Positions 1,016-48,995 of a stretch of DNA of 64,000 nt are shown one piece after another; position 1 is the first letter of the stretch, and the number at the start of each line of letters is the position of its first letter. The notes under the pieces are model-generated. The model was not told the DNA's origin. It worked only from the letters and a program-made list of their open reading frames with translations, and searched no databases. The position numbers were made by a program, and so were the translations under genes. The stretch is from NCBI GenBank assembly GCA_022821845.1, contig JAJECT010000024.1:2393-66392 (forward strand), written 5' to 3'. The DNA comes from Rhodothermales bacterium. GTDB lineage: Bacteria > Bacteroidota > Rhodothermia > Rhodothermales > VXPQ01.

Positions 1016-1102
1016 GGAGGGGTGGCAGAGCGGACGAATGCACCGGTCTTGAAAACCGGCGTACCCTCGCGGGTACCGGGGGTTCGAATCCCTCCCCCTC
1101 CG
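1016..1102 (+). tRNA. tRNA-Ser (anticodon UGA)
   Basis: Hand-folded cloverleaf. Acceptor stem GGAGGGG/CCCCTCC; anticodon stem CCGGT/ACCGG with loop CTTGAAA (anticodon TGA). Long variable arm GTACCCTCGCGGGTAC. T-arm GGGGG-TTCGAAT-CCCTC. Discriminator G; CCA is not encoded. Confidence 0.9.
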
Positions 1103-1278
1103 CGCTCCCTCCCCCGCCGATTTTCGGGAATGCAAATTTTTCTGCGGCGGAAAGCGCAACACCGGGGCTTTATTTTCGTAACGGCACGTTAGGCCCGACA
1201 TTTTGCCTTGCGCTTCCGCCCCGGAGCACAGAGACATTCCTGTACGGAACACCCCGAAATTCAGTCCAGACCGAAATC

Positions 1279-28497: not shown

Positions 28498-29916
28498 CTA
28501 TTGCGGCGCGGAATGCGGCCCCTGCGACCCGGGAGCGTACGGATGCACGGGCAGCCCGGCTTCCAGAATCGGCGTGTAGAGCCGCCACGAGTTGATCACT
28601 TCGTCGGCATGCACAAACAGGGTCTGGTCCCCCTGGATCACATCCCCAAGCAAGGTTTCGTAGGCTTGCGGGAGGTCGCCGAACACCTCGTCGTAGCGGA
28701 AACGGAGCCTTCGGGGCGTGAGCCTGAGCGGCATGCGCGGCTGCTTGACCTCAAAATGCAGGTTAAATCCTTCGTCCGGTTGCAATGTGATTTCGAGGAT
28801 GTTGGGGCGAACGTCGCAGGTATCCTCGTAAGGGCGGAAAAGCGAGACCGGCGCCGGCTGAAACCGGATCGCGATGCGGGTGCGCTTTTCGGGCATGCGC
28901 TTGCCGGTTTCGAGGAGGAACGGAACGCCTCGCCACCGCCAGTTGGCGATCTCCATGCGCAGGCGGACGAACGTTTCGGTGACGGATCCTTCCGAAACCC
29001 CTTTTTCTTCGCGATACGCCCTTGCGGGCCGGCCATCCACTTCGCCAGCGGCGTACTGGCCCAGCAGCACATCCTCGGGCCGGAGCGGCACAACCGATTC
29101 CAGGACCTTTATTTTTTCCTGTCGGATGGAGGCGGCGTCGAACCGGGCGGGGGCCTCCATGGCGACCAGCGAAAGCAACTGCGTAAGATGATTCTGCACC
29201 ATGTCCCGCAACGCCCCCGACTGGTCGTAATACCCTGCCCGCGTTTCCACGCCGAGGGCTTCGTGCACCTGAATATCGACCCGCTCTATTTGTCCCCGAT
29301 GCCATACGCTTTCGAAAAGCGCGTTGCCGAACCGAAAGACCAGCAGATTCTGGACGGTTTCTTTCCCGAGGTAATGATCGATGCGAAATATCCGGGACTC
29401 GTCGAAATAGCGGTGCACCAGGTCGTTCAGGGCCTGGGCAGACGCCAGATCGCGTCCGAACGGCTTTTCGACGACGAGCCGCGACCATCCCGCCGACTCG
29501 TGGAGATGGGCCTGGCCAAGGGCTTCGATGGTTCCGGGAAAGGTCTTTGGAGGCAAGGCAAGATAAAAAACCCGGTTGCCGGGCAGGCCGCAGGCCTTTT
29601 CGATGGCGGCAACCCGATGGGCAAGGCGTTCATAGCCATTGCTTCCCCCTCCCAGCGACTGATAGAACACATGCTCGTCGCACCAGGCGGAAAGATCGGC
29701 GTCCGCGGCATGCGGCTCGTCGCGCAGCGCTTCGCGGATACGGTCCCGGAACGCGGCGTCGGACAGGTCGGAGCGGGCCACGCCAAGAATATGGCAACAA
29801 CGCAGTTCGTCATGCCGCTCCATGAGACGAAACAGGGCGGGCGCCAGTTTGCGCGTCGTCAGGTCGCCGCTGGCGCCTAGGATAACGAAAAGATGAGGCT
29901 GGAAGGAGCGGGACAT
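28498..29916 (-). CDS. zwf: glucose-6-phosphate dehydrogenase
   Basis: Start refined to MSRSFQPHLFVILGASGDLTTRKLAPALF (NADP-binding GASGDL). Active-site motif RIDHYLGKE. Confidence 0.92.
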   Translation of the reverse strand: MSRSFQPHLFVILGASGDLTTRKLAPALFRLMERHDELRCCHILGVARSDLSDAAFRDRIREALRDEPHAADADLSAWCDEHVFYQSLGGGSNGYERLAHRVAAIEKACGLPGNRVFYLALPPKTFPGTIEALGQAHLHESAGWSRLVVEKPFGRDLASAQALNDLVHRYFDESRIFRIDHYLGKETVQNLLVFRFGNALFESVWHRGQIERVDIQVHEALGVETRAGYYDQSGALRDMVQNHLTQLLSLVAMEAPARFDAASIRQEKIKVLESVVPLRPEDVLLGQYAAGEVDGRPARAYREEKGVSEGSVTETFVRLRMEIANWRWRGVPFLLETGKRMPEKRTRIAIRFQPAPVSLFRPYEDTCDVRPNILEITLQPDEGFNLHFEVKQPRMPLRLTPRRLRFRYDEVFGDLPQAYETLLGDVIQGDQTLFVHADEVINSWRLYTPILEAGLPVHPYAPGSQGPHSAPQ

Positions 29917-30065
29917 GGGAGCAACCTGTTGCGCCGCGACAGGCGATTCTCCATGGTAAGGAATTTCGGGGTCAACGTTCCTGGGTTGCAGATTCGGTCG
30001 CGCATCCGTTCGGAAACGAGGCAAGCAGGCGCTCCGCATCGTCCGATTGTACAGTCCGACGCGAA

Positions 30066-30112
30066 CGAGGGGGCGCGCATCCTCGTTGATTTTGCGCCCC
30101 CTCGAATTTTTT
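30066..30112 (+). terminator. intrinsic-terminator-like hairpin with a competing upstream helix
   Basis: CGAGGGGGCGC (30066-30076) pairs with GCGCCCCCTCG (30094-30104) and is followed by AATTTTTT. The alternative helix AACGAGG (30064-30070) / CCTCGTT (30081-30087) uses the same 5' strand. Lies about 100 nt upstream of the 30216 ATG. Confidence 0.45.
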
Positions 30113-30215
30113 CGCAACATTTACCTTCTTATTCAATTTATTAATGTATCGGGTCGGGCAAAAGTACCCAAGCCGATGCGTCTCCAAGCCAATTTGTCTA
30201 ACCGGAGAGAACCTC

Positions 30216-31022
30216 ATGAAGCCCCGACCCGTCATCGCCTCCGCCATCGCAATCATCGTCCTGGGTTTCGGCGCATCCGCGAGCCAGGCCCAGACCGCCT
30301 CCGTTCCGGATCCGGTTCCGCCGAGGATGTTTTCCACGACTGGTTTCACAGGTTCTAACGCATACACGCTCCCGACCGGGAGGGGCTTCCTGGCCGCGGG
30401 ATACGCCGGCGCCGACTGGTGGGCGCAATTCTCCGACGACGAATTAACGTCCCTGACGTTTATCGTGCACGCCGCCTACGGCATTCAGGATTATTTGACC
30501 GTGGAGCTTGGTTCTGGCCACTGGAGATACGAGTATGAGTGGTATGATGACACTATCATATCGGAAGCCGAATCTTATCCGTACCTGGCGCCCAAGTTGC
30601 GCATATACAACAGGGGGCAATTGACCACCAGCATAAGAGGCATTATAATTCTTCCGACAGACGCCGCGGGTTTTTTGTACGGGGCTTCTTTGGGGCTCTC
30701 TTCGAAAATAAGGGAAGGGGTCAGTGGACACCTTTCTGTCGGATTCGCCGGGTATTCCGTAGACAGGTTCGATGAAGACAAGTATGAAACGGAACCAGTA
30801 CTGGCTTTTGGCGGGGATGTCCTGGCGTTCACGCCCGGCCAGGGCCAAATCAAGATATTCGGTGAATTTCGACGAGTCGTTTGGGTGAATGAAAGTTTTG
30901 CGATTCTCACTGCGGGCGCACGATTCCTGACCAACTCATTAGGAGCCGAGCTGGGATTTTCCAGGTGGCTTGAGGAGGACTTTGACGTCCGGCCTATTCT
31001 GAGCGTCTCATACCGGTTCTGA
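30216..31022 (+). CDS. putative outer-membrane beta-barrel protein
   Basis: Start refined to MKPRPVIASAIAIIVLGFGASASQAQ (signal peptide, GGAGAG upstream). Alternating beta-strand pattern. C-terminal ...SYRF aromatic terminus. Confidence 0.55.
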   Translation: MKPRPVIASAIAIIVLGFGASASQAQTASVPDPVPPRMFSTTGFTGSNAYTLPTGRGFLAAGYAGADWWAQFSDDELTSLTFIVHAAYGIQDYLTVELGSGHWRYEYEWYDDTIISEAESYPYLAPKLRIYNRGQLTTSIRGIIILPTDAAGFLYGASLGLSSKIREGVSGHLSVGFAGYSVDRFDEDKYETEPVLAFGGDVLAFTPGQGQIKIFGEFRRVVWVNESFAILTAGARFLTNSLGAELGFSRWLEEDFDVRPILSVSYRF

Positions 31023-31069: not shown

Positions 31070-31720
31070 TCACCCCATGTACCGAACCACGGTATCGAAG
31101 GGCAGTTTTTCGATGTCGGGGGCTTCGGCGTCCTGGCGGGGATAGCCCGCGACGAGCAGCAGAAACGGGGTTTCGTTGCGGGGCCTTTCCAGGATTTCGT
31201 TCAGGAAGCGCATTGGGCTGGGCGTGTGCGTAAGGGTGGCGACGCCGGCGTGATGCAGCGCCGCGATCAGAAAGCCTGCGGCAATGCCCACCGATTCCGA
31301 CGCGTAGTAGTTCTTGATGCGCTTGCCGTCCGGGTCCAGCCCATAGCGTTCGAGAAAAATGGCGATAAGCGCCGGGGCTTCTTCAAGGAACGGTTTGTTT
31401 TCGTCCGTACCTAATGGGGCCAATGCGTCCAGCCATTCGCGGGTAGCCCGGCGGCGGTAGAATGCGCGCTCCTCGGCCTCCGCCGCTATGCGGATGCGGG
31501 CCTTGATCTCCGGGTCGCGCACCACCACGAAACGCCACGGCTGCCGGTTCGCCCCACTCGGCGCCGACGCAGCAACCCGCAACGCAGCGGCAATCACTTC
31601 GTCCGGGATGGGCCGGGAATCGAAATCCCGCACGGTGCGGCGGCGCGCCATGTCGTCCGCAAAGCGCTGCGCGCGCCGAACCGCTTCCTCTGGGGAATAG
31701 ACAACGGGCTGGAGTTTCAT
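31070..31720 (-). CDS. nitroreductase-family flavoprotein, iodotyrosine-deiodinase-like
   Basis: RRTVRDF...APSGANRQPWRFVVV...YYASESVGIAAGFLIAALHHAGVATLTHTP follows the IYD/BluB-subgroup pattern of the nitroreductase fold. Confidence 0.8.
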   Translation of the reverse strand: MKLQPVVYSPEEAVRRAQRFADDMARRRTVRDFDSRPIPDEVIAAALRVAASAPSGANRQPWRFVVVRDPEIKARIRIAAEAEERAFYRRRATREWLDALAPLGTDENKPFLEEAPALIAIFLERYGLDPDGKRIKNYYASESVGIAAGFLIAALHHAGVATLTHTPSPMRFLNEILERPRNETPFLLLVAGYPRQDAEAPDIEKLPFDTVVRYMG

Positions 31721-31729
31721 GCAGACTTA

Positions 31730-31765
31730 GTGGTCATATATTTATTAACGTGGCCAGAAAAATCT
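31730..31765 (+). repeat. phased GGTCA/GGCCA motif block R0
   Basis: GGTCA at 31732 and GGCCAGAAAAA at 31752, exactly 20 bp apart, between the nitroreductase start and the esterase stop. Confidence 0.4.
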
Positions 31766-31784
31766 GCCCATGAGGCCCATTGCC

Positions 31785-32699
31785 TTACGAGGCCTCTGTC
31801 CGGGATTCGTTCAGCAACCAGTCGATGAGACGCTCCGCATAGTTCGATTTGAGCCAGGGGCTGTGCGAACCCTCGTTGATCTTCCAGAGTTCGACCGTAA
31901 TGCCATCCCGGCAACCCTTGCGATAGCGAATGCGGTCGGTTTCCGCGCCCTCGTTGGCATGGTCGATATCGATGGGAGACAGTTCTTCGGCCATGGAAAG
32001 ATCGCATTCCGCGCGTTCGGCCCAGCGCGCTACCACATCCTCGGCGCCAGCGTACCCGACGCCGACGGGAATTCCTGCATAGCGAATGATGGCGTCTTCC
32101 GTGCCATGAACCTGCAATACGGCGACCGGCGGCGCGGACGCGCAACGGGTTGAATCCAGAAAGGAGGTCCCTGCAAGCGACGCGATCGCGCTCAAACCCG
32201 GAAGACCTTCGCAGGCAAGGCGATAGGACATGAAACCGCCGTTGGAATGTCCGACCGAAAATACGCGGCCCACCGAAATATACTTGCCCGCCTCGTCGAT
32301 CAGGCTGGAAAGATACGCAACGTCGTCCACCTCGAACTTGAAGAAGTCGCAACAGAAATCCGTGGCGTTCCAGAAGCGATTGTCGACGGAATCGCGGGTG
32401 CCGCCAGGCAGAATCAGCGCGAAATTATCGGAGTCCACCCGCCCGGAAAGATCCCAGTACGCATCATGACCCGCAGGATTGCCCGAATAGCCATGCAAAC
32501 TGATTACAACGGGAAGGGGACCCATGGCGTCGTATCCCATAGGAAGTTGCAGGCTGGCGGGACGGTCGCCGCCTATGATATACGCCGTTTGCCGCATGTC
32601 CGGCTCGGTCGGAAGTTCCTCCTGCATCGTCTCGCCGCAAGCAGTCAGCAGAAAAACCAGAAGAATACAGGCTAAAAGCGAACGGAGCATAGAGGGCAT
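31785..32699 (-). CDS. secreted alpha/beta-hydrolase esterase (PHB-depolymerase/LpqC-like lipoprotein)
   Basis: Lipobox LLTACGE. HG oxyanion motif VVISLHGYSG. Nucleophile elbow GHSNGG. Start moved from the TTG at 32714 to the ATG at 32699 (the ATG at 32690 is also possible). Confidence 0.75.
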   Translation of the reverse strand: MPSMLRSLLACILLVFLLTACGETMQEELPTEPDMRQTAYIIGGDRPASLQLPMGYDAMGPLPVVISLHGYSGNPAGHDAYWDLSGRVDSDNFALILPGGTRDSVDNRFWNATDFCCDFFKFEVDDVAYLSSLIDEAGKYISVGRVFSVGHSNGGFMSYRLACEGLPGLSAIASLAGTSFLDSTRCASAPPVAVLQVHGTEDAIIRYAGIPVGVGYAGAEDVVARWAERAECDLSMAEELSPIDIDHANEGAETDRIRYRKGCRDGITVELWKINEGSHSPWLKSNYAERLIDWLLNESRTEAS

Positions 32700-32909
32700 C
32701 GTGGCAAAAGACAAATTCGGCGGGGTCCGGGGCGCGTTTTCAGCAGAAGCAATCCGGTTGCGGGCGTTTGGGCCTTATAATACGGATAAGGGGTTTGCGC
32801 GCTGGAATTTTTTGGGGGACGTCAGGGTTTTGGGGCAAATAATCGGCCCCCCCATGACGGGGACGAGATTTTGTGGACAGATATGGGTTAAAATGACCGG
32901 GAACGTCGT

Positions 32910-32958
32910 TTGGCGGTCATCTGTGGCCAGCAAATCGACTTGACAGTCAAAAATGACG
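32910..32958 (+). repeat. phased GGCCA-type motif block R1
   Basis: TTGGCGGTCATCTGTGGCCAGCAAA (32910-32934) is 23/25 identical to 35473-35497. Cores sit at 32915, 32925 and 32945, spaced 10 and 20 bp. Confidence 0.55.
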
Positions 32959-32987
32959 TGTTGCACAGATAGCACTGAGGGTACTCA

Positions 32988-34103
32988 TCAGAAGGAGTCA
33001 ACGCCTTCAATGAGATGCAGCAGAGGACGAAACAGGAAAAAACGTTGCCGCCGCCCGCCACCCGCATCAAGCAACTCCAGCACCTCGCCTTCATGCAGTA
33101 CATCCAGAATACGTCTTGCCGTCCGCCCCGGAATCCCGGCGGTTTTGGCGAAACCCGTACTGCCGAAAACGGGCTGCCGGAAAATTGCATCGAGGGCGTG
33201 GGCGACATGAGGGGATCGGGTCATCGCTGCTACCCGACGCTTCATGTCCTCGTAGAGATCAAGCATCTCCCGCACTTTGCGGGCGTTTTCTTCGGCCTGC
33301 GCCTGCACCGCCTCCAGAAAAAACCGACACCAGCCGGTCCAGTCATCGTCGCGGGAAACCGAGAGCAGCCCGGCGAAATAGCATTCCCGTCGCGCCTCCA
33401 GATAAGCGCTGATACAAAACACAGGCTGCCTGATAAAACCGCGTTTCCATAAAAACAGGGGAATCAACATACGCCCTATGCGCCCGTTGCCGTCCAGAAA
33501 GGGGTGCAACGCCTCAAACTCGGCATGGAGAATGGCGAGTTGAACGAGGCGGTCAGGCGCATCTTCGCGCATGTAGCGTTCCCATTTGGACATGCCCCTG
33601 GAGAGTCTGTCGGCGCCAACAGGAACATAGGTGGCATTCTCTATCGTGGACCCGGGCCGACCGATCCAGTTAGGAATGCGCCGCAGTTCGCCGGGCATTT
33701 TGTTGCGACCGCGAACCCCGTCCAGCAACGCCCGATGTGCTTCGAACACAACCCGCATCGAGAGCGGCGCATCCTGCAACAGCGTTACGGCGTCGCGCAT
33801 AGCCATACGACAGTTAAGAATCTCTTCGATGTCGTTGCGGAATTCCGGCGAACCAACCTTCTGCCCCGCCTCGAACCCCAGGATTTCGCCAAGAGTAGCC
33901 CGTATCCCTTCGATTTTCGACGAGAGCACGGCCTCTTGCACGGTCAGCGGCGACAGTAACACATCGGGGTTCGGGATCGCCGCAAGCGTCTCGTCATAGC
34001 GCGCGACGGCAGCGGCAGCCGGCCCAAGCAATGGGATCAGTTGCGACCATTCCAGCCGGTCTTCCGGCGGAAACCGACCTGTACAATAATGCACTGGGGC
34101 CAT
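32988..34103 (-). CDS. Fic family protein (AMPylase-type Fido domain with intramolecular inhibitory helix and C-terminal wHTH)
   Basis: Fic motif HPFLDGNGRIGRML. N-terminal inhibitory motif SSKIEG (S/TxxxEG/N). Start refined to MAPVHYCTGRF at 34103. Confidence 0.9.
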   Translation of the reverse strand: MAPVHYCTGRFPPEDRLEWSQLIPLLGPAAAAVARYDETLAAIPNPDVLLSPLTVQEAVLSSKIEGIRATLGEILGFEAGQKVGSPEFRNDIEEILNCRMAMRDAVTLLQDAPLSMRVVFEAHRALLDGVRGRNKMPGELRRIPNWIGRPGSTIENATYVPVGADRLSRGMSKWERYMREDAPDRLVQLAILHAEFEALHPFLDGNGRIGRMLIPLFLWKRGFIRQPVFCISAYLEARRECYFAGLLSVSRDDDWTGWCRFFLEAVQAQAEENARKVREMLDLYEDMKRRVAAMTRSPHVAHALDAIFRQPVFGSTGFAKTAGIPGRTARRILDVLHEGEVLELLDAGGGRRQRFFLFRPLLHLIEGVDSF

Positions 34104-34200
34104 TGGTCTTTCTCCATGTTGGATAATGCCTGTTCCGTCCCGGTAAACAATGCGACAGAAGGGTTGCGAAACAGATTCGATACTTGACCGCAAACACACT

Positions 34201-34318
34201 TTCCGGCCAAATGTTTCCTAAAGTGGCCAAATAAATCATTTGATGATCATTTGTGGCCATCAAAAGCAGGTTGTCAGTCAAAAACAGGAGAAATCAGCCA
34301 TCTAATGGAGCGTTGGGC
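34201..34318 (+). repeat. phased GGCCA-type motif block R2
   Basis: GGCCA at 34205, 34225 and 34255; AGTCA at 34276; AGCCA at 34296 (spacings 20/30/21/20). Shares AAGTGGCCAAATAAAT and ATGGAGCGTTGGG with R3. Confidence 0.55.
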
Positions 34319-34470
34319 TTACTGTGGCGCACAGAGGCCGCCAGAAACAGAACGACAAAAGCAGGGCCCCGAACGAATCGCAGAAAGATTTTGGGATTGC
34401 ACGGGAACCGGACATCGACCGAAGGCATTCCTCTAACAAGGAAAGCACCAACGAACCCGGGAAAGAAGCC

Positions 34471-34605
34471 ATGTCGAAAAAAATCAATGCAACTGCGAGG
34501 CAGCAGCGTACGCTATCCTACAAAGGTCGAAACGGGCCGCCGCCACGATCCTCTGGGGCTACCAAGCCGCCGCCGCCACCACCGCCGCCGCCAAAAAAGA
34601 AATAA
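34471..34605 (+). CDS. candidate leader mini-ORF with a 9-proline run (MSKKINATARQQRTLSYKGRNGPPPRSSGATKPPPPPPPPPKKK*)
   Basis: ATG at 34471 preceded by GGGAAAGAAG. Ends 33 nt before the ATG of the AT-rich gene. (CCG)3(CCA)2(CCG)3CCA followed by AAAAAGAAATAA. No support beyond ORF and context. Confidence 0.3.
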   Translation: MSKKINATARQQRTLSYKGRNGPPPRSSGATKPPPPPPPPPKKK

Positions 34606-34638
34606 TGTCATTTCACCTTTTAAACCTAATCAAGAAAC

Positions 34639-35259
34639 ATGCCAAACATATCTGTTGAAATAATAGAAGTGCTCAAATTTTTATTACCAGGGTTTATAAC
34701 AACTACCGTTTTTTATTCATTTACTTCATTTCCAAAACCCAACACATTTGAGCAAATTGTATATGCCTTGATTTCGACTACTATCATTCAATCTATTATA
34801 TCATTAATATATTTAATAGAAATTGATCTTTTAAATGACGACAATTTAGAATTATTATTCTCAACCATTATCGCTATTTTATTAGGAATAATATCTTCGT
34901 ATTTGATGAATAATGATATTATACATCAAATTTTTCGTTCATCCAAATTAAAAATCACGAGAGAAAGCTCATATCCATCAGAATGGTATTTCGCTTTTGC
35001 GCGATATTCAAAATGTTATATCGTATTACATATGCATGGAGAAAGACGTCTCTATGGATGGGCTACAGAATGGCCAAGCAGGCCGGATAAAGGACATTTT
35101 CTCATTGAAGAGGGCGAATGGTTATCCTTACCAAAGGAAGCAAACGATAGTGCGAAAAACGATACAATCGAAAAAAATGCTATTCTCGTCCCCGTTGTGG
35201 AGGTCGAAATGGTAGAATTTCTTCCTCAAATTCCAGCAAAAGGTCAGCGGAACGATTGA
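34639..35259 (+). CDS. hypothetical membrane protein (3 N-terminal TM helices + about 100-aa soluble C-domain; DUF6338-like by memory)
   Basis: 206 aa. Very AT-rich coding sequence with AT-biased codons, unlike the host genes. TM segments FLLPGFITTTVFYSF, IVYALISTTIIQSIISLIYLI and LLFSTIIAILLGIISSYL. Confidence 0.65.
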   Translation: MPNISVEIIEVLKFLLPGFITTTVFYSFTSFPKPNTFEQIVYALISTTIIQSIISLIYLIEIDLLNDDNLELLFSTIIAILLGIISSYLMNNDIIHQIFRSSKLKITRESSYPSEWYFAFARYSKCYIVLHMHGERRLYGWATEWPSRPDKGHFLIEEGEWLSLPKEANDSAKNDTIEKNAILVPVVEVEMVEFLPQIPAKGQRND

Positions 35260-35472
35260 AGATGCCCCGTCTGTTATACATAAGGGCAAATACCGGATGG
35301 CGGGCGATATTGGCGATTTGCCCAGCGAGAGGAATTGACCGAATGCGAATCCCAAAAAACTGGAAACAGCCCTTGGCCGAAGGACGCTTGCTGATTTTGT
35401 CCTTTTTCGACGACGGCATCCATCGCCCTGCAGCGGCCATTGCGGCAGAGGGAAAGTAGCCAGAAAACGATC

Positions 35473-35550
35473 TTGGCGGTCACTTGTGGCCAGCAAACAG
35501 GCTTTACGGCCAAAAGCGGATCAAAGTGGCCAATAAATGGAGCGTTGGGG
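35473..35550 (+). repeat. phased GGCCA-type motif block R3
   Basis: GGCCA at 35488, 35508 and 35528, exactly 20 bp apart. The 5' 25 nt nearly match R1 and the 3' part matches R2. Confidence 0.55.
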
Positions 35551-35738
35551 TCACGAGCCATAGCCTTCAGGGCACGGCTTGCCGCCGAATTGACTTTATC
35601 GTCACAAAACCGTAATATTTCCCGTGATTTTCGCCAGAATCTTGCCATACGCATCGACCCGCCTCGCTGAATTAGCGCCAGAATCACGACATACGAATCC
35701 CTGAATCAGGCCCTGTCACCAGCAATTAAGCATAGCCC

Positions 35739-36875
35739 ATGTCCGAAAAACTCGCTTCAACGATCCAAGATATTGCCAAAGGCATCGCCGCCGGAAGATT
35801 CCAAAGCGAGGCGGCAATCAGCCAAGGCGTCGTGACGCGCATTCTGGCTACGCTGGGCTGGGATGTATACGACACGCAGGTCGTTACCCCGCAATTCCCC
35901 ATTCGTAATAGCGCAAGAAAAGTAGACTACGCACTCTGCCACCCACCAAGAGAAGCAGCTATTCTCATAGAAGTCAAGGATATAGGTAAAGCGGATGGGA
36001 AAGGCGAGACACAACTTTTCGAATACTGCTTTCACGAGGGCGTAAACATTGCAATTCTAACCGATGGGCGCCTTTGGAGCTTCTTTTATCCGGCGGGAGG
36101 GGGAAGCAATTACAAAGACAGGCTATTTGCCCAAATCGACCTGCTTATCCACGACCATCGTGCTGTTGCCAATACACTCACCCGATATCTGAATATGGAG
36201 GACATCAGGTCGCGTGCGACATGGGACCGGGCAAGACAGGACCACAAGCAAGCACAACTTGAGAGAAAGGCGGCTTCTCAATTTGTACCCGTTTGGAATA
36301 AACTCCTTTCGGAACCAGCTAAATCATCGCTATTGACCTTATTCCTGAAAGAAGTCGAAAAAGAAGCCCAAGTCAAACCAAATTCGGACCAAGCGGTGGA
36401 ATTTATCCGCAGCCAAGCCAAGGACGAGAGTGCAAGGCCGACAAGGCCACCGGGAAAATCAGGAGAAACCGGAAAACGGCGGCGAACACAACCCGTGACC
36501 CACTATTCGCCGCCGCCAACCGTTAGGAATACCTCAAGACAGGGATCATTCACATTCAGGGGACAGACGCAGGAGTTCCGCTCTGGCAACGAATTACTCG
36601 GCGCGCTATTCACTATGTTTGCCAAAATGGATTCTTATTTCTGTAGAACGTACTCAGAAACATACCTGGGCCGCTCGAAAAAGTACGTGGCCCAAACCCG
36701 GGAAGAGCTTCACCCGACAAATCCAAATCTGAGACAGGCGCTTCCTCTGCCTGGTGGGTGGTGGATATCCACTCATTGCAGCAATGCGCAGAAAATGCAA
36801 CGGATCCGGGAAGCCTGTGTTCTGCTTAACCTGGAATTTGGGCGGGATCTGGTGGTTAACCTTCCGAACGCGTAA
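35739..36875 (+). CDS. HsdR_N-like PD-(D/E)xK nuclease-fold protein with an uncharacterised C-terminal region
   Basis: The N-terminal 130 aa follow the type I restriction R-subunit N-terminal pattern (SEAAISQGVVTRILATLGWDV...RKVDYAL...AILIEVKD...ILTDGRLWSFF). The remaining about 250 aa are not recognised. Confidence 0.7.
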   Translation: MSEKLASTIQDIAKGIAAGRFQSEAAISQGVVTRILATLGWDVYDTQVVTPQFPIRNSARKVDYALCHPPREAAILIEVKDIGKADGKGETQLFEYCFHEGVNIAILTDGRLWSFFYPAGGGSNYKDRLFAQIDLLIHDHRAVANTLTRYLNMEDIRSRATWDRARQDHKQAQLERKAASQFVPVWNKLLSEPAKSSLLTLFLKEVEKEAQVKPNSDQAVEFIRSQAKDESARPTRPPGKSGETGKRRRTQPVTHYSPPPTVRNTSRQGSFTFRGQTQEFRSGNELLGALFTMFAKMDSYFCRTYSETYLGRSKKYVAQTREELHPTNPNLRQALPLPGGWWISTHCSNAQKMQRIREACVLLNLEFGRDLVVNLPNA

Positions 36876-37588: not shown

Positions 37589-38206
37589 TTACGCCGCGCA
37601 AAGGGCCTGCAGGAAATCCCGGATCGGGCGAAAGGCCTCGTGATCCAGATTCCAATACTTTTTCTTTGCTGCGACACCAACGGAAACATGGGGTTCCGGC
37701 ATCGTCGCAAGATACGCATGGGCGCGCGCCTTCTCTGGATGACGAGTCTCAACGCCAACCTCGGATTTGACGCACCGGAAAAATTCGTCGATGCACGAAT
37801 CGACGGGCGTACCCGCAAAAGATTGCGACAACACGGTTTCCAGCATACCGGGACCGTCCTGGGGCAATATCAATACGCCCGTTTGGGGATTTCCTTCCGT
37901 AAAAAGACTGCTTTTCGACGGCGCCGGAAGATGGGCTTTACGCAATGCGGACTGGACGCTTTGGAATGCGCTGTCGGCAGATTTTTCGGCGTCCCGGACA
38001 ATTCCGATACGTCGAACCTGGCTAAAATTGGATGTCCCCGGAAAACCACGCAGGAATTTCGGCAAATCATGGACGCCTTCGTAGTTATGAATCTGCACCC
38101 CCGAAAGATCAAGGTGCTTCCGGAATGCTTCAAAAAAATTTCGCCCATCGTTGCCTTCGACAAGAAGCTGGATGGGATCGCGTATTTTTACAGACTTCCC
38201 CTCCAC
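37589..38206 (-). CDS. Toprim-like small protein (DUF3226/DUF4276/DUF4435-type), partner of the upstream ATPase
   Basis: 205 aa. GTG start 3 nt after the ATPase stop (TGAGCCGTG). Acidic motifs LLVEGNDGRNFF and IGIVRDAEKS match the Toprim E...DxD/E layout. Family assignment is by pattern memory only. Confidence 0.7.
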   Translation of the reverse strand: MEGKSVKIRDPIQLLVEGNDGRNFFEAFRKHLDLSGVQIHNYEGVHDLPKFLRGFPGTSNFSQVRRIGIVRDAEKSADSAFQSVQSALRKAHLPAPSKSSLFTEGNPQTGVLILPQDGPGMLETVLSQSFAGTPVDSCIDEFFRCVKSEVGVETRHPEKARAHAYLATMPEPHVSVGVAAKKKYWNLDHEAFRPIRDFLQALCAA

Positions 38207-39385: not shown

Positions 39386-40279
39386 CTACCACACTTCTCC
39401 CGGCGCGTACAAATCCTGCGCCCGCCCGATCAATTTTCCGTCCGGCTTCGTCACCCGCTTCTGAGCGCTTTCCTGATAGGGCAGGTGCTTCAGCACGTAG
39501 CGCATGCAGTTCAGGCGCGCCCGCTTCTTGTCGTCCGACTTGATCACCACCCAGGGAGCCGTTTTGGTGTCGGTGGCGGCGAACATCGTTTTCTTCGCCT
39601 CGGTGTACGCATCCCAAAGCGCAAGCGACTGAACGTCCACATCGCTGATTTTCCACTGCTTGAGCGGATTCCGGGCGCGCGACAGGAACCGCCGCAACTG
39701 TTCCTCGCGGCTCACCGAAAACCAGAACTTGAACAAGTGGAATCCGTCGTTGACCAGCATCTCTTCGAACGTCGCCGCATCCCGCAAAAAACGGAGCCGT
39801 TCGGCAGGCGTGCAGAACCCCATGACCGGCTCGACCACGGCCCGATTGTACCAGGAGCGATCAAAGAACACCACCTCTCCCCTCGACGGCAAACACCGTA
39901 CGTAGCGTTGAAAATACCATTGTCCGCGCTCCCGCTCGGACGGCGCAGGCAGCGCCACCACCAGTGCGCTACGCGGGTTCAGGTGCTCCATGAAGCGCTT
40001 GATCGTTCCGCCCTTGCCCGCAGCGTCCCGCCCTTCGAAAAGCAGAACCACCCGCTGCCCCGTCTCGTGCACCCATCGCTGCATCCGCAACAATTCGACC
40101 TGCAAATTCGCCTTCTGGCGCTCGTATTCGGCGCGTCCAAGTTTGGTCTTGTAGGGATACGAAGCGCTGATAATCTCTCGCTTGCCCGCCTCTTCGACCT
40201 TCCTGAGGAGCCCGGACGGCACCTTGGTGGTTGGCAAAAGAACCTCCAGGCCATCGCGTTCCATCGTGGCGACAGTCAT
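39386..40279 (-). CDS. ppk2: polyphosphate kinase 2 (single-domain)
   Basis: Start refined to MTVATMERDG. The track ORF continues upstream into the MITE copy. Walker A FEGRDAAGKGGTIK and the PPK2 lid motifs are present. Confidence 0.9.
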   Translation of the reverse strand: MTVATMERDGLEVLLPTTKVPSGLLRKVEEAGKREIISASYPYKTKLGRAEYERQKANLQVELLRMQRWVHETGQRVVLLFEGRDAAGKGGTIKRFMEHLNPRSALVVALPAPSERERGQWYFQRYVRCLPSRGEVVFFDRSWYNRAVVEPVMGFCTPAERLRFLRDAATFEEMLVNDGFHLFKFWFSVSREEQLRRFLSRARNPLKQWKISDVDVQSLALWDAYTEAKKTMFAATDTKTAPWVVIKSDDKKRARLNCMRYVLKHLPYQESAQKRVTKPDGKLIGRAQDLYAPGEVW

Positions 40280-40384
40280 GAGAAAACCCTTCCTTGTATC
40301 AGATTCGTCGAAATAGCGATCAATTGCTCCTCTCGCGATACGCTGAATATACGCGAAAAGCACGGCAATGCCATACGGCGCTGA

Positions 40385-40643
40385 AAGGATACTCTGATTA
40401 AGTCCACGAAGCTCAGAGGCTTGCGAGGGGTGCGCTGGCAAGGAATGACGAAGCAGCGTGGCAGGCCCCACGTAATGAGGAATGACGCAGCCAGCGTGCC
40501 CCTCGCAACCTCCCGAAGGGCGCGGCACGTCCCTGATGACAGGAATCCACAGCAATTTCTGCTAATTTCAAAGATACAAGCATGACGGCTTTTATGGGCA
40601 ATAGTGACGCGCTGAGCGAAGTGGTTTTAATCAGAGTATCCTT
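40385..40643 (-). mobile_element. MITE-like non-autonomous element, full copy 2 (inverted relative to copy 1)
   Basis: Same TIRs (AAGGATACTCTGATTAAG ... TTAATCAGAGTATCCTT). Collinear with the reverse complement of 11405..11666. Sits between the divergent ppk2 and xylanase starts. Confidence 0.6.
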
Positions 40644-46451: not shown

Positions 46452-48152
46452 ATGAAAAATCTGTTTTTCTTGCTGTCTTCGCTGTTTCTTGTGCTATCCG
46501 TTTCGGACGCCGAAGCTCTGGCCCAAGGCGACGTTACGTTCAAAGGCTCTTTTAATGGCGGTTATTTTCTCCTTGAAATAGCGGGGGGCAAAGCAAAGAT
46601 TAGCAAGTATCCAGGCGTTTATCATAATAATTGCGAAATATGCAATCCCAATGTGTATCCGTGTTCGACTGGCTACGATGGAAAGCGTCGATTAGGCATC
46701 GCAGGCAGCCAATGCAGCCCCTTAACACGCCCTGCATTGTCTGCCGTACAGAAATATTGCACCCAATCCTGCTCTGTTAATTTGGGCGATCCTGCGCCGC
46801 CACTCCCTCCGCCTCCTGCGCCACCCGCTCCACCTGCTCCACCCGCGCCCACTTCTACGCCTAAGCCTACTCCCAAAACGCCCTCCAATGCTTATGTCAC
46901 CTTCTCAGGTTCTTTCGGCGGCGGTTACATTAAAATAAAAATAGCCGCCGGAAAGGCTAATGTCGTTATGTATCCCGGTCGTACGTACACCGATTGCAAA
47001 ATCTGCGAACCGAGCATCTGGGGCTGTTCGGCTGGCACAGACGGCAAGAAAAGATTGGGCACCGGAGGAAGCAAGTGCACCAGTGTCCCGTCTTCCGCAA
47101 TGAATTCTATACGAGCCTACTGCGCTCAATCCTGTTCCATTAGTTCGCAACCACCTATGCCTCCGGAAGAAGTAGTAATTGTTAATAACAATCCTGAAAA
47201 CACATGTGGGGCAACACAAATACCAAATGATTCTGCATCTTCGGGAACAGATTCTGCATCTTCAGGAACGTGTTCTTTTTGTCACGAATGTAGTAAATTT
47301 CGTCAATGCCGAAGGAGAGGCGACGGACCGTTTTACGGCTGTACACATATTGATGCAGCTAAATTGAGAGCTTTAGGCTATGTTTGTTCGGATTTCTGTC
47401 CTTCCGATGATTCTGGCGGAAGTAAACCTGTAGGACATCCCGGAACTGACCCTCTGCCTACCAATCCTCCTTCCCCGCCTGATTCTATTCCTAATTCTGG
47501 TGGTTCCGGTACTCCTTCGGATAGTACTGGCACAGATACTTCAGAAAATAAACCTTGCATGTGCAATGGCCAGGAAGTTGATGAGGCTATTTGCGATCTT
47601 GTCGATGAGCATAAGGAACATACATTTCCTTTCAAGTGCGATCAATTCAGAAATGATCATGGGATGTTCGTACCAAGTGGACCAAAGATTAAAGGTACTG
47701 AGAAAGGAAAACATAAAGGATATGGGCATATTAATTCATCTCTTAAAGTATTATTTGCTAATGTTCAGAATTATTTGGTTAAAAATCATGGTAACATTCC
47801 GCTCAGGGTAACCTCTGGATATCGATGCCCTAAAGGTAATCATGACGTGTACATTAGTCTTAATAATGGTAAAGGAACTGATAAGTATCCTGCCGATACT
47901 CCGTATGATGTCAAGAACCAAGTAAGCCGTCATGTTATTGGTAAGGCTGCAGATATTAGTTCTGCCACTGTCAACGATTCCCGTTGGACTTCCGAAGTAA
48001 AAAATGATATTGTAAAGTATAATCTTCAATTATTTCTTGATCCCAATGATTCTACGGGACAACGAAGCCTTTCTCAATCTCAAATATATTCTAGTACCTC
48101 GCACGTGCATATTGACCTTCCTCGCGGTTCGTACGACCGCACCGCTCGTTAA
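46452..48152 (+). CDS. secreted multidomain protein: two Cys-rich 82-aa repeats + Pro-rich linkers + Cys-rich middle + C-terminal Peptidase_M15A-like (LAS-fold) domain
   Basis: Signal peptide MKNLFFLLSSLFLVLSVSDAEALAQ. C-terminal motifs LRVTSGYRCPKGNHDV, SRHVIGKAADIS and SHVHIDL (H-x6-D ... H-x-H zinc ligands of M15A/VanY-like peptidases). Low-GC codon usage. Confidence 0.8.
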   Translation: MKNLFFLLSSLFLVLSVSDAEALAQGDVTFKGSFNGGYFLLEIAGGKAKISKYPGVYHNNCEICNPNVYPCSTGYDGKRRLGIAGSQCSPLTRPALSAVQKYCTQSCSVNLGDPAPPLPPPPAPPAPPAPPAPTSTPKPTPKTPSNAYVTFSGSFGGGYIKIKIAAGKANVVMYPGRTYTDCKICEPSIWGCSAGTDGKKRLGTGGSKCTSVPSSAMNSIRAYCAQSCSISSQPPMPPEEVVIVNNNPENTCGATQIPNDSASSGTDSASSGTCSFCHECSKFRQCRRRGDGPFYGCTHIDAAKLRALGYVCSDFCPSDDSGGSKPVGHPGTDPLPTNPPSPPDSIPNSGGSGTPSDSTGTDTSENKPCMCNGQEVDEAICDLVDEHKEHTFPFKCDQFRNDHGMFVPSGPKIKGTEKGKHKGYGHINSSLKVLFANVQNYLVKNHGNIPLRVTSGYRCPKGNHDVYISLNNGKGTDKYPADTPYDVKNQVSRHVIGKAADISSATVNDSRWTSEVKNDIVKYNLQLFLDPNDSTGQRSLSQSQIYSSTSHVHIDLPRGSYDRTAR

Positions 48153-48173
48153 CCTCTAACCTTGCTTTGCGCT

Positions 48174-48995
48174 ATGACGACTTTCCTTCGCCTTTTTCGC
48201 TCAGTGATTTTACTGGCTCCGTTACTTCTTTTTGCATCTTCTGCCTTGGCCCAAGAATACAAAATCGGCTCTCCCGACGCTGAAGCGCTCGCGGCAGAAC
48301 TTCATAGCGGCGATACGTATCGTATCGGACAAGCGCTTGATCGTTTTCCGTATTATGAGGATGTTTATGAGAACAATTCAGTGCTTGTCGACATACATCC
48401 TTCCGTTGCAAAAGGTCTTATTTCCGCACTTGATACGCAATTGGATTATCTTTTTTCCGAAGACATAGGCGAAGGAGGTGAAGTTCTCTTTGAATACGTA
48501 ATTACGCCTCTTACTGTGTTTCTTACGCGAGTAGACGACCACGAGGCCATGCCCGTGCTTCTTCGCGCTTCGCAATTTGGCGGCGCCGCTCCACTTGCCC
48601 TTGCAGAATTTGGACCTGATATTGTGCCTATCGTTATTGATTATATCAATTCTCCTGAACGTAATATACCGGAAATTGGAGGTGGTTTTCTTGTTTGCGT
48701 GTCTATTGTTCGTTTCTGGCGCCCTCTGGACGTCAGGACGCACGATACGCTTAAGCAACTTGCGATTAATTATATGCAAGGATACGTTCCAGAACATCTT
48801 GTCGATGATCCTCTGTATTCTTCATTGAAAAGGGACGGCGCTTATCTTGCTTCGGCCCTTGGAGACGCTGATCTTAAAGAGATGGTTATCGGCATGATGG
48901 ACGATCTTAAGGGGTTTGGCGAACTTTATCTCGAACAATGGTACGAAGAGGAAATCGATGCGATCGACAGCGATCGTCTGGAGCAAAACGACTGA
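48174..48995 (+). CDS. secreted helical-repeat (HEAT/ARM-like) protein, candidate cognate partner of the M15A protein
   Basis: ATG at 48174 gives MTTFLRLFRSVILLAPLLLFASSALAQ (signal peptide); the track starts at the TTG at 48162. Alpha-helical repeat-like composition. Same low GC. Starts 22 nt after the upstream stop. Confidence 0.65.
   Translation: MTTFLRLFRSVILLAPLLLFASSALAQEYKIGSPDAEALAAELHSGDTYRIGQALDRFPYYEDVYENNSVLVDIHPSVAKGLISALDTQLDYLFSEDIGEGGEVLFEYVITPLTVFLTRVDDHEAMPVLLRASQFGGAAPLALAEFGPDIVPIVIDYINSPERNIPEIGGGFLVCVSIVRFWRPLDVRTHDTLKQLAINYMQGYVPEHLVDDPLYSSLKRDGAYLASALGDADLKEMVIGMMDDLKGFGELYLEQWYEEEIDAIDSDRLEQND

What the first reader, a model, noticed from the sequence alone, without database searches (positions are those of the whole stretch)
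31730..35550. Helically phased GGCCA-type repeat blocks in four consecutive intergenic regions, bracketing single-gene modules
Seen in sequence: a short core (GGCCA, with variants GGTCA/AGTCA/AGCCA, usually followed by an A-rich tail such as GGCCAGCAAA, GGCCAATAAA or AGTCAAAAAT) recurs in four blocks. The cores lie at 31732/31752; 32915/32925/32945; 34205/34225/34255/34276/34296; and 35488/35508/35528. Spacing is almost always a multiple of 10 bp, and exactly 20 bp in R0 and R3. Segments 32910-32934 and 35473-35497 are 23/25 identical. R2 and R3 also share AAGTGGCCAA(A)TAAAT and ATGGAGCGTTGGG. The blocks separate nitroreductase | esterase | Fic | AT-rich membrane gene | nuclease-like gene, whose GC contents differ strongly from one another. 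No ORF explains them: each copy is interrupted by stops in every frame. Inference, option one: the blocks are a cooperative binding array for one DNA-binding protein (a shared regulator, or recombinase arm sites). Option two: they are scars of serial insertion at one attachment site, giving a cassette-array-like architecture. No integrase lies in the window.
Basis: partly seen in the sequence, partly recalled or inferred. Interest (0 to 1): 0.7.

Follow-up and report, generated by a model that had tools for sequence, protein, structure and literature searches.

The report
Dyad-site modules bracketing defence-gene cassettes
The repeated GGCCA blocks are copies of a roughly 120-base module made of 28-base two-fold-symmetric protein-binding sites; the module belongs upstream of a nitroreductase gene in a small group of uncultured bacteria and separates single anti-phage genes that differ between relatives, so the locus may be a gene-cassette array without a visible recombinase.

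Summary
The blocks are real and non-random. The GGCCA/GGTCA 5-mers are the outer hexamers of 28-bp dyad sites (GTGNCCRGCAAA-N4-TTTRGCGGNCAC). These sites are arranged as a module: a right half-site, 12 bp, site a, 2 bp, site b, 12 bp, site c*.

A half-site matrix trained only on relatives gives 8 strong hits in the 64-kb window, and all 8 lie in the four blocks. The module is conserved next to the same nitroreductase gene in eight related metagenomic loci (Rhodothermales-like). It is absent from 79 more distant loci.

Gene content between modules differs among relatives:
- none, with "empty" arrays of 7 dyads
- SoFic
- SoFic plus DUF6338 plus an esterase, or a RES-Xre toxin-antitoxin pair
- four tandem type-IV-restriction-like paralogues

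Orthologous modules are only 62-73% identical, while flanking DNA is 88-98% identical, and variants are distributed against orthology. So the modules recombine.

They are not attC hairpins, not an RNA, not transposon ends and not genome-wide REPs. No recombinase lies within 10 kb in any locus.

Best reading (about 0.4): res/att-like recombination modules for a recombinase encoded elsewhere. Close rival (about 0.35): an operator array spread by unequal crossing-over.

The parts
31726..31761 (+). R0: truncated module. Right half-site (31726-31737, read on the - strand), 12-bp spacer, left half-site GTGGCCAGAAAA (31750-31761). It abuts the nitroreductase start codon on the left and the esterase 3' end on the right.
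   Evidence: Matrix hits of 10.4 and 14.7 bits. Same arrangement in L011 and L010.
32853..32990 (+). R1 module: L site 32853-32880 (right half TTTTGTGGACAG), spacer, site a 32893-32920, site b 32923-32950, decayed c* from 32951 onward.
   Evidence: The orthologue in L011 keeps a full c*.
34183..34322 (+). R2 module: L site 34183-34210, site a 34223-34250, site b 34253-34281, c* 34295-34322 (contains ATGGAGCGTTGGG).
35456..35554 (+). R3 module: site a 35456-35483, site b 35486-35513, c* 35526-35554. Its L site and leader have been replaced (35311-35452 is not homologous to L011).
31070..31720 (-). Nitroreductase gene, the constant left anchor of the array in all eight array-bearing loci.
   Evidence: Pfam PF00881, 1.5e-23. 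Loci.
31785..32714 (-). Module 1: esterase / PHA-depolymerase-like gene. Its coding sequence is deleted in sister locus L011.
32988..34103 (-). Module 2: Fic-domain gene matching the SoFic anti-phage model.
   Evidence: PADLOC SoFic 2.3e-101. Pfam Fic_N and Fic. Also present in L011 and L018.
34472..35259 (+). Module 3: small proline-rich ORF (34472-34605) plus the AT-rich DUF6338 membrane gene (34639-35259, GC 0.33).
   Evidence: Shared only with L011.
35739..36875 (+). Module 4: HSDR_N-like gene. It has a PD-(D/E)XK nuclease domain and a SeqA-like C-terminal DNA-binding domain, so it resembles a type IV restriction enzyme. A sigma-70-like promoter lies at 35590-35618.
32846..32864 (-). Terminator-like hairpin just left of R1, inside a leader of about 70 bp that is also found left of L011-R1 and L011-R3.

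Best explanation
Each block is a copy of a composite double-stranded protein-binding module. The module holds three or four 28-bp dyad sites. Each site can hold a dimer that reads an outer TGNCC hexamer and an inner A-tract. The sites are laid out as L-12-a-2-b-12-c*. The module belongs in front of the nitroreductase gene of this clade. I propose that it works like a res or att site. A site-specific recombinase encoded elsewhere in the genome assembles on a and b as accessory sites and exchanges strands at the terminal site c*. A circle carrying one gene and one module could then be inserted next to a resident module, or deleted between two directly repeated modules. That would give the observed series module-gene-module-gene of mostly anti-phage genes. 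Shown: the anatomy, the conservation, the variable gene content, the empty arrays, and exchange between modules. Inferred: protein binding. Speculative: the recombinase and the crossover point.
For: 1. Dyad anatomy. In 34 sites, 72% of mirrored positions are complementary, against 21-50% in shifted registers. Outer and A-tract positions are nearly invariant, and the centre is free. 2. One whole module, including its terminal elements L and c*, stands beside each of four unrelated genes. All modules are in direct orientation whatever the gene's strand. 3. Relatives have different content between the same anchors. L007 and L013 have 7 dyads and no gene. L017 has 4 dyads. L022 has an array but no HSDR_N gene. 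L010 has only L-12-c*. L018 has SoFic plus four paralogues. L011 has a toxin-antitoxin pair in place of the esterase. 4. Inter-module segments are bounded on the left by a consensus left half-site and on the right by a consensus right half-site. Joining these would rebuild the regular dyad seen at that position in empty arrays. 5. Orthologous modules of the window and L011 are 62-73% identical, while flanking coding and non-coding DNA is 88-98% identical. The GGTCAT-CT and GGTCAC-TT variants are distributed against orthology, so modules have exchanged sequence recently. 6. The architecture recalls Tn3 res, which is 114 bp with three dimer sites, DNA-binding-domain motifs at the site ends and minor-groove contacts inside (PMC9943657). 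The half-site TGTCCGGCA of L008 and L017 resembles TGTCTGATA of Tn3 site III. 7. Small serine recombinases are statistically linked to defence genes (PMC13552941).
Against: No recombinase gene lies within about 10 kb of the array in any of eight loci, or among the window ORFs scanned. All dyads are 28-29 bp, whereas the three Tn3 res sites differ in length. The two datable recent events are not at a dyad: the esterase was lost through a CCAGAA microhomology, and the toxin-antitoxin pair was inserted at TTGGGG about 70 bp left of R1. The four paralogue modules of L018 are explained by tandem duplication and gene conversion. The L sites do not share the centre of c*. Sites in the window are partly decayed. 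The boundary reading rests on about four independent events and was made by eye. No copy was found outside this locus, but genome-wide searches of the relevant genomes were not possible.
Confidence: 0.4

Rival explanations
1. Operator array. The dyads are binding sites for a dimeric or tetrameric transcription factor encoded elsewhere. This factor controls the nitroreductase promoter and neighbouring genes. Copies arose by unequal crossing-over and tandem duplication within a repetitive intergenic region. That region also happens to tolerate insertion of foreign defence genes.
For: The array always begins 6-17 bp from the nitroreductase start codon, so that gene's promoter must lie in or beyond the array. 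The array persists where no cassette is present (L007, L013, L017, L022). Array length changes in 30/40-bp steps between near-identical genomes, which is typical of slippage. The L018 paralogue modules are tandem duplicates. The recent esterase loss and toxin-antitoxin gain were not site-specific. No recombinase is nearby.
Against: Four to seven 28-bp dyads is lavish for one small gene. Whole modules, including the terminal L and c* elements, flank unrelated genes in both orientations, even at the 3' end of Fic. The distance from c* to the HSDR_N promoter ranges from about 35 to about 200 bp. Operators under selection should not be 62-73% identical when flanks are 88-98%. No regulator gene co-occurs with the array: the XRE-M78 gene is present in only L022, L010 and L017, with a fragment in L018.
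Confidence: 0.35
2. Self-propagating quasi-palindromic minisatellite with no dedicated binding protein. Slippage and template switching between similar inverted repeats keep the array in flux, and the gene insertions are incidental.
For: Copy number and order vary between L007 and L013, which are otherwise 98-100% identical. Sequence turnover is high.
Against: The same 12-4-12 geometry and the same invariant positions are kept from L017 and L022 to the window, while other positions drift. The array is confined to one locus. Positions 7-9 and 20-22 are conserved but not symmetric, which template switching would erase.
Confidence: 0.1
3. The dyads are binding sites of the adjacent HSDR_N-like protein itself, through its SeqA-like domain, for autoregulation or self-targeting control.
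For: The gene flanks the array in six loci. Its C-terminal domain resembles the DNA-binding domain of SeqA. Every paralogue in L018 has its own module.
Against: L022 has a full array and no HSDR_N gene. Homologues at 53-56% identity in other islands (L014, L015, L019-L021) have no array. The sites contain no GATC.
Confidence: 0.05
4. Integron-type attC sites (a cluster of attC sites lacking an integrase), or ends of Tn7-, Mu- or IS21-like transposons stacked at one attachment site.
For: Single-gene modules are separated by repeats of about 100 bp. GTTGGGC in R2 fits GTTRRRY. TGT precedes several sites.
Against: Neither strand folds better than shuffled sequence (z -0.2 to -1.5). Cassettes lie in both orientations and have their own promoters. 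No inverted partner ends exist in 64 kb. There is no IntI, Tns or DDE gene apart from an unrelated IS481 in L010.
Confidence: 0.03

Closest known systems
res sites of small serine recombinases (Tn3/gamma-delta resolvase; PMC9943657)
   Same: A module of about 100-140 bp holding several dimer-binding inverted-repeat sites. The specific motif is at the outer ends of each site, with an A/T tract inside it. The candidate crossover site is at one end of the module. The module lies in an intergenic region next to a gene start. Direct repeats would allow deletion of the DNA in between.
   Different: All sites here are 28-29 bp, not 28, 34 and 25 bp. Arrays can hold up to 7 sites. No resolvase gene is adjacent. 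Many modules lie in series on a chromosome, separated by single genes. Integration, which resolvases disfavour, would be needed.
Integron cassette arrays, including sedentary chromosomal integrons that store defence genes (bioRxiv 10.1101/2024.07.02.601686, listed)
   Same: A series of short single-gene modules, many of them anti-phage, each accompanied by one repeat of about 100 bp. Content differs between relatives.
   Different: The repeats do not fold as single-stranded hairpins. Genes lie in both orientations with their own promoters. There is no IntI. The repeats are double-stranded multi-dyad modules.
pdif (Xer) modules of Acinetobacter plasmids (from my own knowledge, not checked here)
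   Same: 28-bp sites that can be read as 11-6-11. They bound small gene modules, and the recombinase is supplied in trans by the chromosome.
   Different: Here each boundary has 3-4 sites, all in direct orientation rather than alternating. There is no resemblance to XerC/XerD arm consensus. The locus is chromosomal.
Defence islands and integration hotspots between core genes
   Same: A variable set of SoFic, AbiL-like, RES-Xre and type-IV-restriction-like genes lies between conserved G6PD and PPK2 genes. The whole island is absent in a relative whose G6PD is 78% identical (L016).
   Different: Ordinary hotspots have no conserved multi-dyad module repeated at each gene boundary.

Membership tests
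Integron attC / CALIN | Imperfect palindrome that folds as a single-stranded hairpin | tested here: not met
   DNA folding of R1-R3 on both strands gave z-scores of -0.23 to -1.48. Between 20 and 81 of 200 shuffles folded as well.
Integron attC / CALIN | IntI tyrosine recombinase and attI at the head of the array | tested here: not met
   No recombinase domain in the window ORFs scanned or in the gene tables of the related loci.
Integron attC / CALIN | Cassettes mostly co-oriented and promoterless | tested here: not met
   Esterase and Fic are on the - strand; DUF6338 and HSDR_N are on the + strand. HSDR_N has its own TTGACT-17-TAATAT promoter.
res site of a small serine recombinase | Module of about 100-130 bp with several dimer-binding inverted-repeat sites | tested here: met
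   L-12-a-2-b-12-c* spans 100-140 bp, and dyad symmetry is 72% against 21-50% in shifted registers. Compared with Tn3 res as described in PMC9943657.
res site of a small serine recombinase | Sub-sites of different lengths that fix the synapse geometry | tested here: not met
   All sites are 28-29 bp.
res site of a small serine recombinase | Cognate resolvase gene next to res | tested here: not met
   None within about 10 kb in eight loci.
res site of a small serine recombinase | Strand exchange at the central dinucleotide of one site | not testable with these tools
   There are only indirect hints: half-site boundaries of inter-module segments. Recombination junctions from reads or an assay are needed.
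Xer / pdif modules | Single 28-bp XerC-spacer-XerD sites in alternating orientation around each module | tested here: not met
   Each boundary has three to four sites, all in direct orientation. Similarity to dif arms was judged from memory only.
Tn7-, Mu- or IS21-type transposon ends | Arrays of transposase-binding sites at two inverted ends, plus transposition genes | tested here: not met
   The nhmmer profile and the matrix find no inverted partner arrays in 64 kb. There are no Tns or DDE genes.
REP / BIME extragenic palindromes | Many copies dispersed across intergenic regions of the genome | tested here: not met
   Strong half-sites occur only in this locus, both in the 64-kb window and in the roughly 20-kb flanks of the relatives. 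Among 538 kb of nitroreductase-anchored loci only L022 has clustered hits. Whole genomes could not be scanned.
Transcription-factor operator array | Dyad sites at fixed positions relative to a promoter, with a co-occurring regulator | tested here: inconclusive
   Position relative to the nitroreductase start is fixed (6-17 bp). Distance to the HSDR_N promoter varies from about 35 to 200 bp. No regulator gene co-occurs with the array.

The most novel reading that the evidence does not exclude
A chromosomal gene-capture platform that is functionally like an integron but mechanistically different. Double-stranded, res-like multi-dyad modules accompany single defence genes. These genes are inserted and excised at the terminal dyad by a recombinase encoded elsewhere in the genome, probably a small serine recombinase. 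The result is a shufflable store of anti-phage cassettes in Rhodothermales-like bacteria.
Probability: 0.3. Interest if true: 0.85.

Novelty: new variant of a known kind. Interest (0 to 1): 0.6.

Why it matters
How defence genes move in and out of islands that carry no recombinase is an open question. Here a conserved module with defined architecture sits at each gene boundary, and natural empty, partly filled and amplified states are available. That makes the question testable: find the protein that binds the 28-bp dyad and ask whether it recombines two modules. If it does, this is a second, integron-independent way of building cassette arrays. It could also supply new recombination sites for genome engineering. 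If the binder is a regulator instead, the locus shows how a repetitive operator region becomes a landing pad for defence genes.

Tried and rejected
1. attC or single-strand hairpin: folding was not better than shuffles.
2. RNA element: Rfam gave nothing at gathering threshold or at E up to 1. The dyad alignment shows symmetry from the consensus, not compensatory change, and 9 of 13 L008 sites have a T/T clash in the putative stem.
3. Transposon ends: no inverted partners were found.
4. Exact-pattern scan of GTDB genomes for the window's b-site gave 3 chance-level hits, L004-L006.
5. A two-site pattern gave nothing in JGI metagenomes or viral contigs.
6. BLAST of a pristine array against plasmids and phages gave no match.
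7. The conserved neighbour at 30144-31022 as a DNA-binding candidate: it has a signal peptide and a beta-barrel-like C-terminus, so it looks like an outer-membrane protein.
8. The HSDR_N-like protein as the binder: L022 has the array without the gene.
9. The XRE-M78 gene as the binder: it is absent from the window, L011, L007 and L013.
10. Promoter search inside the array: no convincing sigma-70 match. Only a leftward TTGACG-17-TACGAT lies beyond the array in L013, and it is not conserved in the window.
11. Half-site covariation between clades (GTGTCC/GGACAG against GTGGCC/GGTCAC): it proved imperfect, because L008 mixes GTGTCC with GGTCAG.
12. Literature search for the resolvase 9-mer consensus that I remembered found nothing. 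I therefore cite only the Tn3 site III oligonucleotide.

Full report
**Observation**

The region was read directly. R1 (32880-32990), R2 (34210-34330) and R3 (35443-35560) are homologous: a profile built from them recovers each with E of 6e-26 to 1e-29 and finds nothing comparable on either strand elsewhere in the window. GGCCANNAAA occurs five times in 64 kb, always on the + strand and always inside the blocks.

One sub-claim is wrong. Only R2 has stops in all six frames. Coding is still excluded, because copies differ by indels and by 30/40-bp modules and share no frame.

**Anatomy**

Related loci revealed what the cores are. In L007 and L013 the same place holds seven nearly perfect 28-bp sites, for example GTGACCGGCAAGCCCATTTAGCGGTCAC.

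- Each site is two 12-bp half-sites in inverted orientation around a free 4-bp centre.
- In 34 sites from six loci, 72% of mirrored positions are complementary, against 21-50% in shifted registers.
- T2, G3, C5, C6, A10 and A11, together with their mirror positions, are invariant or nearly so.
- Positions 7-9 and 20-22 are conserved but not symmetric.

That is why the cores appeared as direct repeats 20 bp apart. The sites are arranged as a right half-site L, 12 bp, site a, 2 bp, site b, 12 bp, site c*. Site c* has a consensus left half followed by TGGAGCGTTG. Dyad starts are therefore 30 or 40 bp apart, which explains the multiples of 10.

A half-site matrix trained only on relatives gives eight hits of at least 12.5 bits in the window, all in the four blocks.

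**What it is not**

- Neither strand folds better than shuffled sequence.
- Rfam finds nothing.
- There are no inverted partner arrays.
- The array has no BLAST match in plasmid or phage collections.
- Hairpin-type covariation is absent: L008 mostly pairs GTGTCC with GGTCAG.

**Setting**

The window comes from an uncultured bacterium. The nearest named homologues of its G6PD are from Rhodothermales MAGs, and it encodes type IX secretion sorting domains. The blocks lie in a variable island between the G6PD gene (28498-30120) and the PPK2 gene (39386-40555). The genes in the island are:

- an outer-membrane-like protein
- a nitroreductase
- an esterase
- a Fic protein that matches the SoFic defence model at 2e-101
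- DUF6338
- an HSDR_N-like protein
- DinB
- an AbiL-like pair, DUF3226 plus AAA_21

The HSDR_N-like protein has a confident model (pLDDT 88). Its N-terminal nuclease domain resembles those of DrdV, BpuSI and HsdR. Its C-terminal domain resembles the DNA-binding domain of SeqA. It therefore looks like a modification-dependent restriction enzyme, and its homologues sit in other defence islands. No recombinase or transposase domain was found in the window ORFs scanned.

**Relatives**

Eight loci carry the array, always starting 6-17 bp from the nitroreductase start codon:

| Locus | Content next to the array |
|---|---|
| Window | esterase, SoFic, DUF6338, HSDR_N |
| L011 (97-98% identical housekeeping proteins) | esterase coding sequence deleted, RES-Xre toxin-antitoxin pair added, then SoFic, DUF6338, HSDR_N |
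| L007 and L013 | seven dyads and no gene before HSDR_N |
| L017 | four dyads, then HSDR_N |
| L018 (same contig as L008) | SoFic, then four tandem HSDR_N paralogues, each with its own module |
| L022 | an array directly between nitroreductase and DinB, with no HSDR_N gene |
| L010 | only L-12-c* |

Of 80 loci anchored on nitroreductase homologues, only L022 (82% identity) has the array; the 79 others, at 70% identity or less, lack it. In L016 the whole island is missing.

**Evidence for recombination at the modules**

1. Whole modules, including the terminal elements L and c*, stand beside four unrelated genes. They are always in direct orientation whatever the gene's strand, and one lies at the 3' end of Fic. 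Splitting a tandem a-b array by random insertions would not copy L and c*.
2. Each inter-module segment is bounded by a consensus left half-site on its left and a consensus right half-site on its right. Joining them would recreate the regular dyad seen at that position in the empty arrays.
3. Orthologous modules of the window and L011 are only 62-73% identical. The adjacent promoter region is 98% identical, the intergenic DNA after R2 is 88%, and the flanking genes are 93-94%.
4. Orthologous modules are no more alike than paralogous ones. The GGTCAT-CT and GGTCAC-TT variants are distributed against orthology. So modules have exchanged sequence since these two genomes split.
5. L007 and L013, which are otherwise 98-100% identical, order their 30- and 40-bp steps differently.

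**Evidence against a dedicated site-specific system**

- No recombinase lies within about 10 kb in any locus.
- The esterase loss in L011 used a CCAGAA microhomology.
- The toxin-antitoxin pair entered at TTGGGG, about 70 bp left of R1, not at a dyad.
- The L018 paralogue modules are 70-95% identical along their length, as expected from tandem duplication with gene conversion.
- The sites in the window are partly decayed.

**Mechanism**

The module resembles Tn3 res in size, in having several dimer sites, and in placing the specific motif at the outer ends of each site with an A/T tract inside (PMC9943657). The L008/L017 half-site TGTCCGGCA resembles TGTCTGATA of Tn3 site III. It differs in that all sites have the same length and no resolvase gene is adjacent.

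I therefore favour, at about 0.4, a res- or att-like module used by a recombinase encoded elsewhere, with c* as the exchange site and a and b as accessory sites. The close rival, at about 0.35, is an operator array for an unidentified regulator of the nitroreductase promoter, copied by unequal crossing-over in a region that tolerates insertions. Binding by the HSDR_N-like protein is unlikely because L022 has the array without that gene.

**Novelty**

I found no description of such modules. Small serine recombinases are reported as markers of defence genes (PMC13552941), which makes the favoured reading plausible but does not test it. I rate the finding as a new variant of a known kind, namely multi-site recombination or regulatory modules in a defence island. 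There is a 0.3 chance that it is an integron-like capture platform working on double-stranded sites.

Noticed in passing
window 46452-48995: An AT-rich stretch (GC 0.44-0.46, against about 0.60 around it) with two ORFs of 566 and 277 aa and no confident Pfam match (weak Peptidase_M15_3 only). It lies between a GH5/CBM6 gene and a DUF5916 gene and is probably another foreign insertion. No dyad sites flank it.
   Followed up: partly
window 35256-35459 (35311-35452 has no counterpart in L011): A 67-aa ORF fragment (…NWKQPLAEGRLLILSFFDDGIHRP…) occupies the place where L011 has the R3 leader and L site. It has no Pfam match. It may be the remnant of a lost cassette gene.
   Followed up: partly
window 34472-34605: A small ORF ending in a run of prolines and lysines (…PPPPPPPPPKKK) lies directly upstream of the DUF6338 gene. 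It is conserved in L011 despite the low-complexity tail.
   Followed up: no
window 35739-36875; L018 7054-12704: The HSDR_N-like gene (PD-(D/E)XK nuclease domain plus SeqA-like domain) evolves much faster than its neighbours: 81% identity between the window and L011, where G6PD is 97% and nitroreductase 98%. It is amplified to four mosaic paralogues in L018.
   Followed up: yes
window 37742-38167: The DUF3226 partner of the AbiL-like AAA_21 gene is present in the window but deleted in the sister locus L011, and truncated to 85 aa in L013.
   Followed up: partly
L022 5720-5840 (- strand, window orientation): Next to the regular array there are dyads of a second kind with a different core (GTGTCGCATAAATTCATTTATGCGTCAT, GTGTCGTACAAACGATCTTGTGCGCCAC, TGCGCCA-N14-TGGCGCA), again separated by a 12-bp spacer.
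   Followed up: no
L022 6671-7777, L010 4695-5837, L017 1067-2125, L018 4354-4560: An XRE-type HTH gene fused to a Peptidase_M78 domain lies next to the nitroreductase in some array-bearing loci (only a fragment in L018). It is absent from the window, L011, L007 and L013. A homologous pair also neighbours the distant HSDR_N homologues in L014 and L015.
   Followed up: partly
L016 551-3299: In a relative whose G6PD is 78% identical, the G6PD gene lies directly beside the GH10 gene. The whole island of about 9 kb, including PPK2 and the nitroreductase, is therefore an insertion or deletion between genera.
   Followed up: no
window 32800-32868; L011 6985-7040 and 9640-9700: A leader of about 70 bp (TTTTTGGGG…GGGTTTTGGGG-AATAATCGG…CCCCAT…) containing a terminator-like hairpin on the - strand precedes three different modules. 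The toxin-antitoxin pair of L011 was inserted inside it.
   Followed up: partly
window 1016-1103: A tRNA-Ser(TGA) gene, the only RNA gene detected in the window. It is far from the island and has no repeat of its 3' end near the blocks.
   Followed up: no
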